Positions 18,667 through 23,235 of a stretch of DNA of 64,000 nucleotides are shown here, in pieces. Positions within the stretch are counted from its first letter, which is position 1, and every line of letters begins with the position of its first letter. The translations under genes and the position numbers were made by a program. Below the pieces are notes generated by a model. That model did no database searches. It saw only the letters and a list, made by a program, of their open reading frames with translations, and was not told the origin of the DNA. Origin of the DNA: the human T2T-CHM13v2.0 reference genome, Homo sapiens; assembly GCF_009914755.1 (NCBI RefSeq), contig NC_060934.1. The stretch is one strand, 5' to 3'.

Positions 18667-18683
18667 AATAAATTGCATGTCTG
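18667..18683 (+). repeat. 5' target-site duplication of the composite retrocopy
   Basis: aataaattgcatgtctg, identical to 23219-23235. Confidence 0.95.
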
Positions 18684-18699
18684 GAGGAAGCAGCTAACT

Positions 18700-18959
18700 A
18701 TGGCGACCGCCACGGAGCAGTGGGTTCTGGTGGAGATGGTACAGGCGCTTTACAAGGCTCCTGCTTACCATCTTATTTTGGAAGGGATTCTGATACTCTG
18801 GATAATCAGACTTCTTTTCTCTAAGACTTACAAATTACAAGAACGATCTGATCTTACAGTCAAGGAAAAAGAAGAACTGATTGAAGAGTGGCAACCAGAA
18901 CCTCTTGTTCCTCCTGTCCCAAAAGACCATCCTGCTCTCAACTACAACATCGTTTCAGG
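18700..18959 (+). pseudogene. SPTLC1P1: Processed copy of serine palmitoyltransferase long chain base subunit 1, exons 1-3 (codons 1-87)
   Basis: Translates to [51 protein letters not shown]...NYNIVSG, the SPTLC1 N-terminus, without introns. Homology stops at c.260, which I recall as the exon 3 end. The P1 number is from recollection. Confidence 0.9.
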
Positions 18960-19068
18960 ACGCAGTCTTGCTCTGTCACCAGGCTGGAGTGCAGTGGTGC
19001 GATCTCGGCTCACTGCAACCTCCACTTCCCGGGTTCAAGCCATTCTCCTGCCTCAGCCTCCTGAGTAG
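18700..19068 (+). CDS. Open chimeric ORF, 122 aa: SPTLC1(1-87) + Alu-derived tail; translation unproven
   Basis: ATG in good context (actATGg); open through the Alu junction to TAG at 19066-19068. Confidence 0.3.
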
Positions 19069-19164
19069 CTGGGACTACAGGCACAAGCCACCATGCCCGC
19101 CTAATTTTTGTATTTTCAGTAGAGACGGAGTTTCACCATGTTGGCCAGAATGATCTTGATCTCC
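18960..19164 (-). mobile_element. AluSc-like element, 3' part (exonised; tail removed by splicing)
   Basis: Starts acgcagtcttgctctgtcacc-aggctggagtgc, with the 1-nt deletion typical of AluSc, exactly after the usual antisense ...gAG acceptor. Confidence 0.9.
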
Positions 19165-20488
19165 TTTTTTTAAATTAAAAAGTAAACTTTAATGTCGAAA
19201 ATGCAAACCTGGGGAGGGCAGAAAGATCACACACAAGGCTGTCACTTCACACTTGGAAGGTTGCACAGCAGCCAGGCAGAGACCCTCCTCACTTCCCAGA
19301 TGGTGAGGGGGCCGGGTGGGGGCACTCCTCACTTCCCAGACGGTGCAGGGGCTGGGCAGAGGCACTCCTCCCTTACAAATGGTGAGGGGGCTGGGCAGAG
19401 GTGCTCCTCACTTTCCAGACAGGGCGGCGGCTGGGCAGGGGCGCTCCTCACTTCCCAGATGGGACGGTGGCCGGGCAGAGGCGCTCCTCATTTCCCAGAC
19501 GGTGAGGAGGCCAGGCAGAGGCACTCCTCACTTCACAGACAGGACGGCAGCAGGGCAGAGGCGCTCCTCATTTCCCAGACGGTGAGGAGGCCGGGCAGAG
19601 GCACTCCTCGCTTCGCAGACGGGACGGCGGCAAGGCAGGGGCACTCCTCATTTCCCAGACGGTGAGGAGGCCGGGCAGAGGCACTCCTCGCTTCGCAGAC
19701 GGGACGGCGGCAGGGCAGAGGCGCTCCTCATTTCCCAGACGGTGAGGAGGCTGGGCAGAGGCACTCCTCGCTTCGCAGACGGGGCGGCGGCGGGGCAGAG
19801 GCGCTCCTCATTTCCCACACGGTGAGGAGGCCGGGCAGGGGCACTCCTTACTTCGCAGACAGGACGGCGGCGGGGCAGAGGCGCTCCTTGTTTCCCAGAT
19901 GGGGCGGCGGCTGGGCAGAGGCGCTTCTCACTTCCCATACTGTGAGGCAGCTGGGCAGAGGTGCTCCTCACTTCCCAGATGGGGTGGAGGCCAGGCAGAG
20001 GCGGCGCTCCTCCTCAATTCCCAGATAGTGGGCGGCTGGGCAGAGGCGCGCCTCACTTCCCGGACGGGGCGGTGGCCGAGCAGAGGCGCTCCTCACTTCC
20101 CAGAGTGTAGGGGGGCCGGGCAGAGGCACTCCTCGCTTCCCAGAGTGTAGGGGGGCCGGGCAGAGGCACTCCTCGCTTCGCAGACGGGACGGTGGCTGGG
20201 CAGAGGCGCTCCTCACTTCCCAGACAGGGCGGCGGCCTGGCGGAGGCACTCCTCACTGCCCAGACGGGGCAGGGCCTGGGCAGAGGCGCTCCTCACTTCC
20301 CAGACTGTGAGGCTGCTGGGCAGAGGCTCTTGTCGCTTCCCAGACAGGGCGGGGGCCGGGCAGAGGCGCTCCTCACTGCCCAGATGGTGCGGTGGCCGGG
20401 CACAGGCGCTCCTCACTTCCCAGATGGTGGAGCAGCAGGGCAGAGGCGCTCCTCACTTCCCAGATGGTGCAGGCAGAGATGCTCCTCA
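19165..20488 (-). mobile_element. SVA2 element (GC-rich ~40-bp VNTR + unique 3' sequence + short polyA)
   Basis: About 30 units like gggcagaggcgctcctcacttcccagacgg. Unique end matches the SVA2-type sequence (minus strand: gctgtgcaaccttccaagtgtgaagtgacagccttgtgtgtgatctttctgccc...cattaaagtttactttt). T-run at 19165-19171. No CCCTCT hexamer and no SINE-R. Confidence 0.85.
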
Positions 20489-20571
20489 GGTCTCAATCTC
20501 TTGATCTCCTGATCCGCCCGCCTGGGCCTCCCAAAGTGCTGGATTACAGGCATGAGCCACCACGCCTGCCC
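20489..20571 (-). mobile_element. AluSc-like element, 5' part (continuation after the SVA2 insertion)
   Basis: ggtctcaatctcttgatctcctgatccgccc...ccaaagtgctggattacaggcatgagccaccacgcctgccc resumes where 18960-19164 broke off. Confidence 0.9.
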
Positions 20572-21794: not shown

Positions 21795-21901
21795 TTTGAG
21801 TGAGTTGTGCACAGACGAAACTAAGGGTCAGAAGCGGAGAGGATACTCCTAAGTCACCCACTTCTCTGTGGCTGGGTGCACACTGGGCATCTGGGAGTTT
21901 A

Positions 21902-21909
21902 TGACATCA
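21902..21909 (-). promoter_or_regulatory. CRE-like element ~110 bp upstream of the NPAP1-like ATG
   Basis: TGACATCA (one mismatch to TGACGTCA) within a GC-rich upstream region. Confidence 0.35.
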
Positions 21910-22424
21910 CTATGGGGCTGGTGACAGAGCCAGTGTGTGGAGGAGTGCTTAGGAGCCCAGCGAGGGTGCCTACAAGAGGAGTCAAAGGGCAAAGGGTGAG
22001 ACCCTTCCACCGGTCCAGCTGGACTCTAGCCTCAGGGATATCCTGCTCCTGGGGGCAAGTGTGTGGCCCTGGATGGGCCCCCCTGTGGGGCTGTTGGGGG
22101 TGCGAGGCTGATCCGCCAGAGCCCTTCCACCTGGCGCCTGGCCCAGGTGCTGGCTAGCACCCAGTGGCCCTGTTTTGGCCGGCCCTGTCCCCCAGGTTAC
22201 AGGGCCAGAACCTGGAAGCAGAGCGCAGGACCAGCCAGATCGCGCCAGGCTTCCCCGGGGCCTCTCCAGTGCCTCTGTGCCACCTGGAGCCAGGCCCGCC
22301 TTCTCCATGGCTGCCGTGGCCTCAAGGGCCACCAGCCTTGCTCCGCAGGTTTCCAAAGAGAGGACGCAGTGCCCTGACCTGACTGGATGCACCTCTTACC
22401 ACATGCCTCCCTGGCAGGCAGGGT

Positions 22425-22530
22425 CTCCACTTTTTACAAATTTGCCTGAGACCATTCCTCAGGTCATTCAGGTGGTCATGGCCCAGCCAGGCTTTGAACC
22501 CAGGCTGTGCGATTCCACAGCTGGCGCTCT
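22425..22530 (+). mobile_element. MIR fragment carried inside the retrocopy
   Basis: caggtcattcaggtggtcatggcccagccaggctttgaacccaggctgtgcgattcc resembles the MIR core and 3' part. Confidence 0.55.
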
Positions 22531-23188
22531 GGCCTGTGTGCCTCATGATCATGGATACAGCATCTATTCTTATTTTTTCATGTAGTCCTGGGGTACTTAG
22601 CACCGTGGCATATCTGTAATAAGCACATGCACACCTCGAAGGAGGTCTTCACTTCAACATACGAGTTGACCATGGCATGCTCTGGGCTCCAGTCCTCTAC
22701 AAAGACGTAGGGCAGGAACTACCAGTTGTCAGCACAGCACCATCCCACATTGCTCTTCTAATGGAGCCTTTCACCCCAGATGTTCTTTCTCGTCTGATGG
22801 GAAGGATCCAAGTATGTAAAGATTATGTTATAGATCAGCTTTGGTCTGTCCTAAAAGAAATTTGCCAGTGGATTATTCCATATGGATAAAAGTCAGTTTC
22901 TCTGGTCTTCCTGGAATGTGTCTAGAAAGCAAATAGATTATTTACAAGTTCATAGTAGATCAATGTATTGGATTAAAATATGACAAACATAATTTGGTCA
23001 TTGTGAGCATGCCAGCTTGGTCAACTATTCACCACACATGATGCCCTAAATATAACTCTAGGTTTTCTTATGCCCAAGAGAGGGACATACTCTTGGGTGT
23101 CTGGACTAGGGAAACATGTATGAAAAACCATTTGGCCACTCTACATCTTGTTATTGGAGAATTGAAACCATCTATATTCAAAGATATT

Positions 23189-23218
23189 ATTAAAAGGCAA
23201 GAAGTTAAAAAATAAAAA
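23189..23218 (+). terminator. PolyA signal (ATTAAA) and A-tail of the retrocopied transcript
   Basis: ATTAAA at 23189-23194; the A-rich tail starts at 23207 and runs into the 3' TSD. Confidence 0.85.
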
Positions 23219-23235
23219 AATAAATTGCATGTCTG
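23219..23235 (+). repeat. 3' target-site duplication of the composite retrocopy
   Basis: aataaattgcatgtctg, identical to 18667-18683. Confidence 0.95.

What the first reader, a model, noticed from the sequence alone, without database searches (positions are those of the whole stretch)
18667..23235. 4.5-kb nested retro-cassette: SPTLC1 exons + Alu + SVA2 VNTR + antisense gene, moved as one unit
Seen: a single perfect 17-bp TSD and one polyA tail enclose spliced SPTLC1 exons 1-3, a split Alu, a 1.3-kb VNTR element, a 416-codon antisense ORF with its upstream region, and old MIR/L1 fragments. Inference: the mobilised RNA was not normal SPTLC1 mRNA but a trapped, prematurely polyadenylated transcript with a ~4.25-kb terminal exon. 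L1 thereby copied an intron-nested gene together with its flanks. I recall several SPTLC1 pseudogenes and several UPF0607 loci in human. If they coincide, this is a small composite retroposon family driven by a housekeeping promoter, currently annotated only as disconnected pieces.
Basis: partly seen in the sequence, partly recalled or inferred. Interest (0 to 1): 0.88.

Follow-up and report, generated by a model that had tools for sequence, protein, structure and literature searches.

The report
SPTLC1 alternative-transcript retrocopy, nine-member family
This 4.5-kb insert is an L1-made DNA copy of an unusual SPTLC1 transcript that ended inside intron 3, and it links two sets of human pseudogenes that are annotated separately, although the open reading frame it carries shows no sign of being kept by selection.

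Summary
A perfect 17-nt target-site duplication (18667-18683 and 23219-23235) encloses these parts:
- spliced SPTLC1 exons 1-3;
- an antisense Alu split by an SVA2-type VNTR element;
- a 416-codon antisense POM121-family ORF with 1.4 kb of its upstream DNA;
- an ATTAAA signal and a short A tail.

In SPTLC1 intron 3 of this genome, 18960-23208 is one contiguous stretch. It starts at an antisense-Alu splice acceptor and ends at an ATTAAA poly(A) site.

Nine loci carry the same fusion, with identical splice junctions. Each has its own flanks and A tail, and seven have a clear duplication. All nine loci with fused SPTLC1 exons 1-3 also hold the cassette.

With the source they form a star-shaped tree, which points to one burst from one source gene rather than a self-propagating element. 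The ORF evolves neutrally (dN/dS about 1.1) and is frameshifted in the source itself.

I found no paper describing the link. Empty sites in other primates and transcript evidence could not be checked. This is a neat variant of ordinary retroposition, of moderate interest.

The parts
18667..18683 (+). 5' copy of the target-site duplication, AATAAATTGCATGTCTG. It is preceded by CT, so the target reads CT|AATAAA, which resembles an L1 endonuclease site.
   Evidence: (D8)
18684..18756 (+). SPTLC1 exon 1 part. It starts about 15-16 nt before the ATG at 18700.
   Evidence: One search gives the protein match to serine palmitoyltransferase 1.
18757..18864 (+). SPTLC1 exon 2, joined precisely to exon 1
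18865..18959 (+). SPTLC1 exon 3, 100% identical to the genomic exon. It ends at the normal donor position.
18960..19165 (-). First part of an antisense Alu-type repeat. Its first base is the first base after the GAG acceptor used in the source intron.
   Evidence: The name Alu is recalled.
19166..20488 (-). SVA2-type VNTR element inserted in the Alu, in minus orientation. It has a T run at 19166-19172, a unique 3' part up to 19270, and a 40-nt unit repeated 30 times at 19271-20474.
   Evidence: The definition of SVA2 comes from passages of PMC4432496 and PMC3287187.
20489..20597 (-). Remainder of the antisense Alu. 20489-20501 is the right copy of the ~13-nt duplication made by the VNTR element, and the left copy is at 19153-19165.
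   Evidence: The end near 20597 is taken from the repeat mask in the hub table.
20544..21794 (-). 416-codon ORF of the POM121 family. RefSeq annotates it as the pseudogene LOC100505502. Its C-terminal 18 codons run into the Alu.
   Evidence: and 37 (PF15229, E 1.3e-21)
21795..23208 (+). The rest of the terminal exon, which is the 1.4 kb upstream of the antisense ORF. GC is 0.58-0.67 over 21800-22400 and CpG observed/expected is about 0.27. 22420-23120 is paralogous to the NPAP1 locus. The last ~85 nt are an old dispersed repeat.
23189..23194 (+). ATTAAA poly(A) signal, 14 nt before the end of the templated sequence
23209..23218 (+). Short, interrupted A tail (AAAATAAAAA)
23219..23235 (+). 3' copy of the target-site duplication

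Best explanation
The insert is an L1-mediated retrocopy of an alternative SPTLC1 transcript.

Shown:
- In the source gene on chromosome 9, exon 3 can be joined to the classical acceptor of an antisense Alu in intron 3. From there one stretch runs on to an ATTAAA poly(A) site.
- That stretch already holds a VNTR element inside the Alu and, on the opposite strand, an older intronless POM121-derived ORF with its upstream DNA.
- The window's copy and eight others have exactly this structure. Introns 1-3 are removed at the true exon borders, and an A tail sits at the same cleavage site. Flanks are unrelated, and most copies have a target-site duplication that starts with A's.

Inferred:
- The RNA started at the SPTLC1 promoter. 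The 5' ends of the copies fall in two clusters, 15-25 nt and 36-42 nt before the ATG.
- It was polyadenylated within the intron and then reverse-transcribed and integrated by L1 proteins in the germline.
- All nine copies arose in one short burst from the single source gene, roughly in the hominoid or great-ape stem.

The antisense ORF was a passenger. It travelled with 1.4 kb of its own upstream DNA, but it has drifted neutrally since.
For: - The 17/17 TSD is unique in the window.
- Exons 1-3 are fused at the real borders in 9 of 9 copies, and all 9 share one exon 3|Alu junction.
- The source intron has T19-GAG|ACGGAGTC 2268 nt after exon 3. The cassette is contiguous from there to ATTAAA and a GU/U-rich downstream stretch.
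- Cleavage sites of the nine copies lie within about 10 nt of each other.
- The nine loci sit on chromosomes 1, 2, 6 (two), 8, 9, 10, 13 and 16, with unrelated flanks.
- TSDs are clear in 7 of 9: 17/17, 17/17, 15/15, 15/16, 14/15, 12/14 and 9/9.
- Every clear TSD starts with A-rich sequence.
- All 11 young copies (nine retrocopies, the source, one segmental duplicate) form a clade with 100/100 support. It has almost no inner structure, and terminal branches are 0.012-0.025.
- No 5'-truncated young copy turned up in searches with the 3' 637 nt or the 3' 2607 nt.
Against: - No transcript data could be consulted, so use of the Alu acceptor and the intronic poly(A) site today is unshown.
- No other primate genome was available, so no empty site was seen and the dating rests on branch lengths and recalled calibrations.
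- Two of nine copies lack a good TSD. The chr2 copy has only 7 nt or a displaced 11-mer. The chr6:23.7M copy has at best 11 of 17.
- Terminal branches differ two-fold. I put this down to local mutation rates, but it could mean unequal ages.
- An older 5'-truncated retrocopy on chr8:36.6M ends at the same poly(A) site, and the tree places it before the split of the source from its chr9:100.0M paralog. The site was therefore used earlier, possibly by a transcript that was not SPTLC1-driven.
Confidence: 0.92

Rival explanations
1. A self-propagating composite retroposon. After the first fusion, daughter copies themselves were transcribed and copied, as in the SVA_F1 subfamily that acquired MAST2 sequence by splicing.
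For: - Host exons were acquired by splicing and the unit reached nine copies.
- One pair, chr13 and chr6:64.4M, is supported at 97/95 and shares the longer 5' end and a more distal cleavage site.
Against: - The tree is a star that includes the source, and the largest inner branch is 0.0034.
- Shared minority variants are mostly scattered C>T or G>A changes with conflicting groupings, as expected from recurrent CpG decay.
- All copies begin at SPTLC1 start-site positions, with no transduced flank from another copy.
- Copies carry only 15-42 nt upstream of the ATG, so they bring no evident promoter.
Confidence: 0.05
2. A chimera made by L1 reverse transcriptase switching templates between SPTLC1 mRNA and an unrelated RNA, not by splicing.
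For: Two-part retrocopies made by template switching are described in the literature (recalled). The insert joins a coding 5' part to a repeat-rich 3' part.
Against: - The junction lies exactly at the exon 3 donor and at an AG acceptor behind a T19 tract.
- That acceptor is in the same gene, on the same strand, 2.3 kb downstream.
- The junction is identical in 9 of 9 independent insertions.
Confidence: 0.02
3. The copies are working genes. Retroposition of the host transcript duplicated a nested antisense gene together with its own promoter, and several copies are kept as protein-coding paralogs.
For: - The ORF is fully open (416 codons) in 5 of 9 retrocopies and 407 codons long in a sixth.
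- It matches Pfam POM121 above the cut-off.
- 1.4 kb of upstream DNA travels with it, and part of that is paralogous to the NPAP1 locus.
Against: - Pairwise dN/dS averages 1.11 over all 55 pairs of the 11 young copies, 1.12 among the six open or nearly open copies and 1.10 among the five broken ones.
- With 15-20 random substitutions the frame stays free of stops in 57-65% of simulations, so open frames are expected by chance.
- The source copy itself has a 1-nt insertion, and three retrocopies are frameshifted.
- CpG observed/expected upstream of the ORF is 0.20-0.35 in all copies, and 15-36 of 70 CpG sites are lost per copy. This gives no sign of a germline-unmethylated promoter.
- RefSeq calls it a pseudogene (hub table).
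Confidence: 0.07
4. DNA-level (segmental) duplication of a pre-existing chimeric locus, or separate insertions of the parts at this site.
For: Genomic duplicates of the cassette region do exist. chr9:94.58M has exon 3 plus intron, and chr9:100.01M has homology beyond both cassette ends.
Against: In the nine fused copies, homology stops exactly at the transcript start and at the cleavage site plus A tail, and their flanks are unrelated. The inner structure is the same in all nine and in the source, so the parts did not arrive separately.
Confidence: 0.01

Closest known systems
Processed pseudogenes (retrocopies) made by L1 in trans
   Same: Introns are removed. The copy ends in an A tail at a poly(A) site and is flanked by a target-site duplication at an A-rich target. 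It arrives without a promoter.
   Different: - The template is not the canonical mRNA. It is a three-exon isoform ending in a 3.7-4.3-kb intronic terminal exon.
- The copy is therefore mostly intron DNA and holds another ORF on the opposite strand.
- Nine full-length copies arose in one burst.
Alu exonisation with intronic polyadenylation
   Same: The acceptor is the poly-T tract plus AG of an antisense Alu in an intron. This is the textbook site for Alu exons (recalled).
   Different: The evidence here is fossil, in the form of nine retrocopies, not RNA. The Alu exon is a terminal exon that runs on for kilobases.
SVA_F1 subfamily, which acquired MAST2 sequence by splicing and has at least 84 elements (PMC3287187, passage seen)
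   Same: Host-gene 5' exon sequence is spliced onto a repeat-derived acceptor and then spread by L1. A VNTR is on board.
   Different: - There is no sign that daughters became sources (star tree).
- The VNTR element is in the opposite orientation to the transcript.
- There are only nine copies.
UPF0607 / NPAP1 / NPAP1L group of POM121-derived intronless genes (Neumann et al. 2014, PMC3942032; passages and Supplementary Table S2 seen)
   Same: The ORF matches Pfam POM121 and is intronless. It has paralogs on chromosome 9 and at the NPAP1 locus on chromosome 15.
   Different: That paper treats UPF0607 as two genes (a and b) that 'duplicated in a subset of primate species' and never mentions SPTLC1 (0 occurrences). 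Here most human copies are shown to be passengers of SPTLC1 retrocopies. That this ORF carries the UPF0607 name is recalled and was not matched by accession.

Membership tests
L1-mediated processed retrocopy | Introns removed exactly at the parent's exon borders | tested here: met
   The exon 1|2, 2|3 and 3|Alu-exon junctions match the source borders in 9 of 9 copies.
L1-mediated processed retrocopy | A tail at the parent transcript's cleavage site, downstream of a poly(A) signal | tested here: met
   ATTAAA lies at 23189-23194 and the tail at 23209-23218. The source has the same signal with non-A sequence after the site. All nine copies have tails.
L1-mediated processed retrocopy | Target-site duplication at an A-rich target | tested here: met
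   The window's TSD is 17/17, with 0 of 100 shuffles giving any match. TSDs are clear in 7 of 9 family members.
L1-mediated processed retrocopy | Empty orthologous site with one TSD copy in an outgroup species | not testable with these tools
   No primate genome other than the window's own is held.
Alu-exonised terminal exon polyadenylated within an intron | Acceptor formed by the antisense Alu poly-T tract plus AG, in the sense orientation of the host gene | tested here: met
   The source reads T19-GAG|ACGGAGTC on the SPTLC1 strand.
Alu-exonised terminal exon polyadenylated within an intron | RNA evidence for the isoform | not testable with these tools
   No transcript data were accessible. 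The nine retrocopies are indirect evidence only.
SVA2 VNTR element | A VNTR of about 40-nt units fused to a short unique 3' sequence, with hallmarks of L1 insertion (definition from PMC4432496 and PMC3287187 passages) | tested here: met
   - The unit is 40 nt, repeated 30 times.
- The 105-nt unique end has 206 candidate loci. Forty were scored, all at 93-100% identity, and 28 of those lie outside this cassette family.
- A T run and a ~13-nt duplication of Alu sequence flank the element.
SVA2 VNTR element | Match to a reference SVA2 consensus | not testable with these tools
   No repeat library is on hand.
POM121 family (Pfam PF15229) | Profile match above the curated cut-off | tested here: met
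   77.9 bits against a cut-off of 27, E 1.3e-21, residues 154-358.
Functional protein-coding gene family (UPF0607) | Purifying selection on the reading frame | tested here: not met
   dN/dS is 1.10-1.12. Frameshifts are present in the source, the segmental duplicate and 3 of 9 retrocopies.
Self-propagating composite retroposon (SVA_F1-like) | Daughter copies act as sources, giving nested subfamilies | tested here: not met
   The tree is a star that includes the source. Shared variants conflict with one another.

The most novel reading that the evidence does not exclude
Copying of a host gene's intron-terminated transcript is a route by which a gene nested on the opposite strand is duplicated together with its own upstream control region. 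On this reading, some of the five or six still-open POM121-like copies, this one included, are transcribed from the DNA they carried along, for instance in testis, and make protein. They would be promoter-bearing retro-duplicates, not dead-on-arrival pseudogenes. A side claim is that this RNA was unusually well mobilised by L1, since 9 of 9 copies are full-length at 3.3-4.6 kb.
Probability: 0.1. Interest if true: 0.65.

Novelty: new variant of a known kind. Interest (0 to 1): 0.45.

Why it matters
- **Shared origin.** Two sets of human annotations turn out to have one origin. These are the SPTLC1P pseudogenes and the POM121-like pseudogenes (the 'putative UPF0607 proteins', a name I recall). 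At the nine loci found here they are halves of the same retrocopy, so they should be annotated and counted as one event each.
- **Family expansion.** The published account of the UPF0607 family gives no mechanism for its expansion (PMC3942032). This finding supplies one.
- **SVA2 counts.** Of the 40 best-scoring loci of the SVA2-type unique sequence, 12 are passengers or paralogs of this cassette and not independent insertions. This affects copy counts for that element.
- **Fossil isoform.** The nine copies are a fossil record of an Alu-exonised SPTLC1 isoform polyadenylated inside intron 3.
- **Limits.** The mechanism is standard L1 retroposition and the passenger ORF looks neutral, so the biological weight is modest.

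Tried and rejected
- **Protein atlas.** The search gave only low-score unrelated clusters and no name for the ORF. The PDB sequence search with the ORF found nothing.
- **Canonical SPTLC1 retrocopies.** I tried to find whether the normal mRNA also left retrocopies by scanning the genome with Pfam PF00155. Only 9 of 54 candidates were scored, at seven loci, and I did not assign them to parent genes. The question stays open. What is shown is that no locus other than the nine has fused exons 1-3.
- **MIR test.** The search with 22420-22560 returned only paralogs of this family (17 of 17 hits). The tool skips very common words and cannot see old, diverged repeats, so 'MIR' is neither confirmed nor refuted.
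- **5' ends.** An ungapped comparison of the 5' ends was misaligned and is not used. One search replaces it.
- **12-nt repeat.** I first read the exact 12-nt repeat (D15) as the duplication made by the VNTR element. I rejected this after comparing all copies.
- **Literature.** Ten searches found no paper linking SPTLC1 to these retrocopies.
  - SPTLC1 with 'retrocop' returned 0 papers.
  - SPTLC1 with POM121 returned 10 papers, which by their titles look like gene lists. I saw the listing only.
  - The 11 papers naming SPTLC1P1-P5 were also seen as a listing only.
  - One search was too broad to be informative.
  - Subscription journals and repeat or pseudogene databases were not searchable.
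Full report
**1. What is in the window**

- The 17-mer AATAAATTGCATGTCTG occurs at 18667-18683 and 23219-23235 and nowhere else in the 64-kb window, even allowing one mismatch. None of 100 shuffles gave a match.
- Inside the repeat, 18684-18959 is SPTLC1 exon 1 (from about 15 nt before the ATG), exon 2 and exon 3, joined at the true borders. 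The 86-residue translation matches residues 1-86 of serine palmitoyltransferase 1 in solved structures (E 8.4e-52).
- From 18960 an antisense Alu-type repeat follows. The name is recalled. It recurs many times in the flanks of the other fetched loci.
- The Alu is interrupted at 19166-20488 by an element in minus orientation. This element has a T run, a 105-nt unique part and a 40-nt unit repeated 30 times. The Alu resumes at 20489.
- A 416-codon ORF lies on the minus strand at 20544-21794. Its last 18 codons are inside the Alu. It matches Pfam POM121 (77.9 bits, cut-off 27).
- The remaining 1.4 kb (21795-23208) is the ORF's upstream DNA. It ends with ATTAAA (23189-23194) and a short interrupted A tail.

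**2. The source**

- The window's own genome could be searched. The three exons lie separately on chromosome 9, minus strand, at 104281872-800, 104279051-8941 and 104275323-227.
- Exon 3 ends ...TTTCAGG|GTAAAT. An antisense Alu 2268 nt further on reads T19-GAG|ACGGAGTC. The retrocopies read ...TTTCAGG|ACGGAGTC.
- From that acceptor the source is collinear with 18960-23208 as one stretch of 3679 nt. It is shorter than the window's 4249 nt only in the VNTR.
- It ends at ATTAAA, then GTTAA|CTTC, followed by a GU/U-rich stretch.
The template was an exon 1-2-3 transcript with an Alu-exonised terminal exon that was polyadenylated inside intron 3.

**3. The family**

- A search with 20600-23206 found 11 places covering the whole query at 95-100% identity.
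- A search with the exon 1-3 part found nine places with all three exons fused, plus the three true exons and one isolated exon 3.
- The two lists coincide. Nine loci carry the whole unit: chr10 (this one), chr1:151.20M, chr2:68.54M, chr6:23.72M, chr6:64.37M, chr8:27.29M, chr9:28.16M, chr13:76.88M and chr16:66.15M.
- The other two full-length places are the source and a segmental duplicate at chr9:94.58M. The duplicate keeps intron 2, exon 3 and intron 3 over at least 8.2 kb.
- In all nine copies the three splice junctions are identical, the flanks are unrelated, and an A tail follows the same site within about 10 nt.
- TSDs are clear in seven of nine: 17/17, 17/17, 15/15, 15/16, 14/15, 12/14 and 9/9. 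The chr2 copy has a weak one (7 nt). The chr6:23.72M copy has none that convinces.
- The 5' ends fall 15-25 nt (seven copies) or 36-42 nt (two copies) before the ATG, which fits start-site scatter.
- Element lengths are 3321-4551 nt. The differences lie in the VNTR.
- No truncated young copy was found.

**4. One source, one burst**

- In a maximum-likelihood tree of the 2.6-kb non-repetitive part, the nine retrocopies, the source and the segmental duplicate form a clade with 100/100 support. The clade has almost no inner resolution, and terminal branches are 0.012-0.025.
- Only chr13 with chr6:64.37M is supported (97/95, inner branch 0.0034).
- Variants shared by a few copies are mostly C>T or G>A and group the copies in conflicting ways, as recurrent CpG decay would.
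- If the copies had been made over a long period, the later ones would share the source's accumulated changes. They do not.
- I therefore read this as a short burst from the SPTLC1 locus, not as a lineage of elements breeding from their own copies.
- Dating is inference. Branches of about 0.012-0.025, and the absence of 15-36 of the 70 shared CpG sites from each copy, fit roughly 12-25 million years. The calibrations (ape and macaque divergences, CpG divergence between human and chimpanzee) are recalled. No other primate genome could be checked.
- Supplementary Table S2 of PMC3942032 lists UPF0607a and UPF0607b entries for human, chimpanzee and orangutan, which is compatible with this dating.

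**5. The passenger ORF**

- The frame is open over all 416 codons in 5 of 9 retrocopies and stops at codon 408 in a sixth.
- Three retrocopies, the source (a 1-nt insertion) and the segmental duplicate are frameshifted.
- Pairwise dN/dS averages 1.11 over all 55 pairs of the 11 young copies. It is 1.12 among the six open or nearly open copies and 1.10 among the five broken ones.
- Each copy has 4-19 private substitutions in the ORF. Simulations with 15-20 substitutions leave the frame free of stops 57-65% of the time.
- CpG observed/expected in the 600 nt upstream of the ATG is 0.20-0.35 in every copy, including the source.
- So the open frame is what a young, GC-rich neutral sequence would show. 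I see no evidence that the copies are kept as genes, although a promoter outside a CpG island cannot be excluded.

**6. The VNTR element**

- Passages of PMC4432496 and PMC3287187 describe SVA2 as a VNTR of mainly 40- and 39-nt units fused to a short unique 3' sequence, with the hallmarks of L1 insertion.
- The element here fits. Its unique part has 206 candidate loci in the genome. Forty were scored, all at 93-100% identity, and 12 of them belong to this cassette family or its chr9:100.01M paralog.
- Comparing all copies shows the true duplication of Alu sequence is about 13 nt, GTCTC(G/A)ATCTC(C/T)T. The exact 12-nt repeat seen in the window arises from two private mutations.
- No reference consensus was available for a direct match.

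**7. Older history**

- chr9:100.01M holds an older genomic paralog at 86-90% identity. Its homology extends beyond both cassette ends, it has the same Alu-plus-VNTR arrangement, and it carries a 463-codon ORF.
- chr8:36.6M holds an older retrocopy at 87% identity. It is 5'-truncated in the VNTR, ends at the same poly(A) site and has the TSD AAGAAAGAGTG. The tree places it outside the clade of chr9:100.01M plus the young copies (95/93).
- More distant paralogs lie at chr9:99.98M, chr9:92.0-92.5M and the NPAP1 locus on chromosome 15.

**8. Literature**

- Neumann et al. 2014 (PMC3942032; passages and Table S2 seen) describe UPF0607 as a primate-restricted, intronless, POM121-related group. They do not mention SPTLC1 (0 occurrences).
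- Searches found no paper that connects SPTLC1 with these retrocopies.
- Farre et al. 2016 (PMC5199112, abstract seen) report that parent genes of processed pseudogenes are enriched for Alus embedded in their 3'UTRs. This may bear on why this Alu-bearing RNA was copied so often, but that remains speculation.
- Subscription journals, repeat libraries and pseudogene databases were out of reach.

**9. Verdict**

- It is a single-source burst, not a self-propagating retroposon.
- The carried ORF looks neutral.
- Empty sites and transcripts remain unchecked.

It is a tidy, apparently undescribed variant of ordinary L1 retroposition. It merges two separately annotated pseudogene sets into one family.

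Noticed in passing
L019 (G000:C9:94575500-94585400), about 1366-9899: A segmental duplicate of SPTLC1 intron 2, exon 3 and intron 3, at least 8.2 kb long and 94-95% identical to the source. It includes the whole cassette with its intron context. Its age resembles that of the retrocopy burst, since it sits in the same star clade.
   Followed up: partly
L021 (G000:C8:36594500-36601500), about 2329-4892: An older retrocopy (about 87% identity), 5'-truncated in the VNTR, ending at the same poly(A) site with an A tail and the TSD AAGAAAGAGTG. The tree places it before the split of the source from the chr9:100.01M paralog. The poly(A) site was therefore used well before the burst, by a transcript whose promoter is unknown.
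   Followed up: partly
L020 (G000:C9:100009000-100016500), about 569-6992: An older genomic paralog of the cassette region at 86-90% identity. Its homology extends beyond both cassette ends, it has the same Alu-plus-VNTR arrangement, and it carries a 463-codon ORF. Which of the two chr9 loci is ancestral was not resolved.
   Followed up: partly
L017 (G000:C9:104267500-104276000), ORF part of the source: The source copy has only 4 private substitutions in the ORF part (20600-21794 equivalent) against 20 in the upstream part. The other ten young copies have 11-18 in the ORF part. This is unexplained. It could be chance, gene conversion with the chr9:94.58M duplicate, or transcription-coupled repair.
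   Followed up: no
L011 (G000:C8:27285800-27292200), about 2093-2131: In the chr8:27.29M copy the VNTR is almost entirely missing (about 140 nt remain), and the remnant includes one unit in inverted orientation. VNTR-element length varies across the family. It was measured as 140-1349 nt in eight of the nine retrocopies. The anchor failed for the chr2 copy.
   Followed up: no
window 23123-23206: The last ~85 nt of the terminal exon, which hold the ATTAAA signal, match at least 22 dispersed loci at 75-82% identity. This is an old interspersed repeat whose family no tool here could name. Homology to the more distant paralogs (chr9:99.98M, chr9:92.5M, NPAP1) stops just before it.
   Followed up: partly
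window 22420-23120: The DNA upstream of the antisense ORF is paralogous to the NPAP1 locus on chromosome 15 (76-78% identity) and to chr9:92.0-92.5M. The NPAP1/UPF0607 duplications therefore carried more than 1 kb of non-coding upstream sequence.
   Followed up: no
L012 (G000:C2:68537200-68544800), 1525-1590 and 6035-6050: In the chr2 copy, an 11-mer that follows the A tail (ATTTTCAGACT) recurs 49 nt upstream of the 5' junction, while only 7 nt (AAATTTT) are duplicated directly at the junction. This may reflect extra nucleotides at the 5' junction or a later rearrangement.
   Followed up: no
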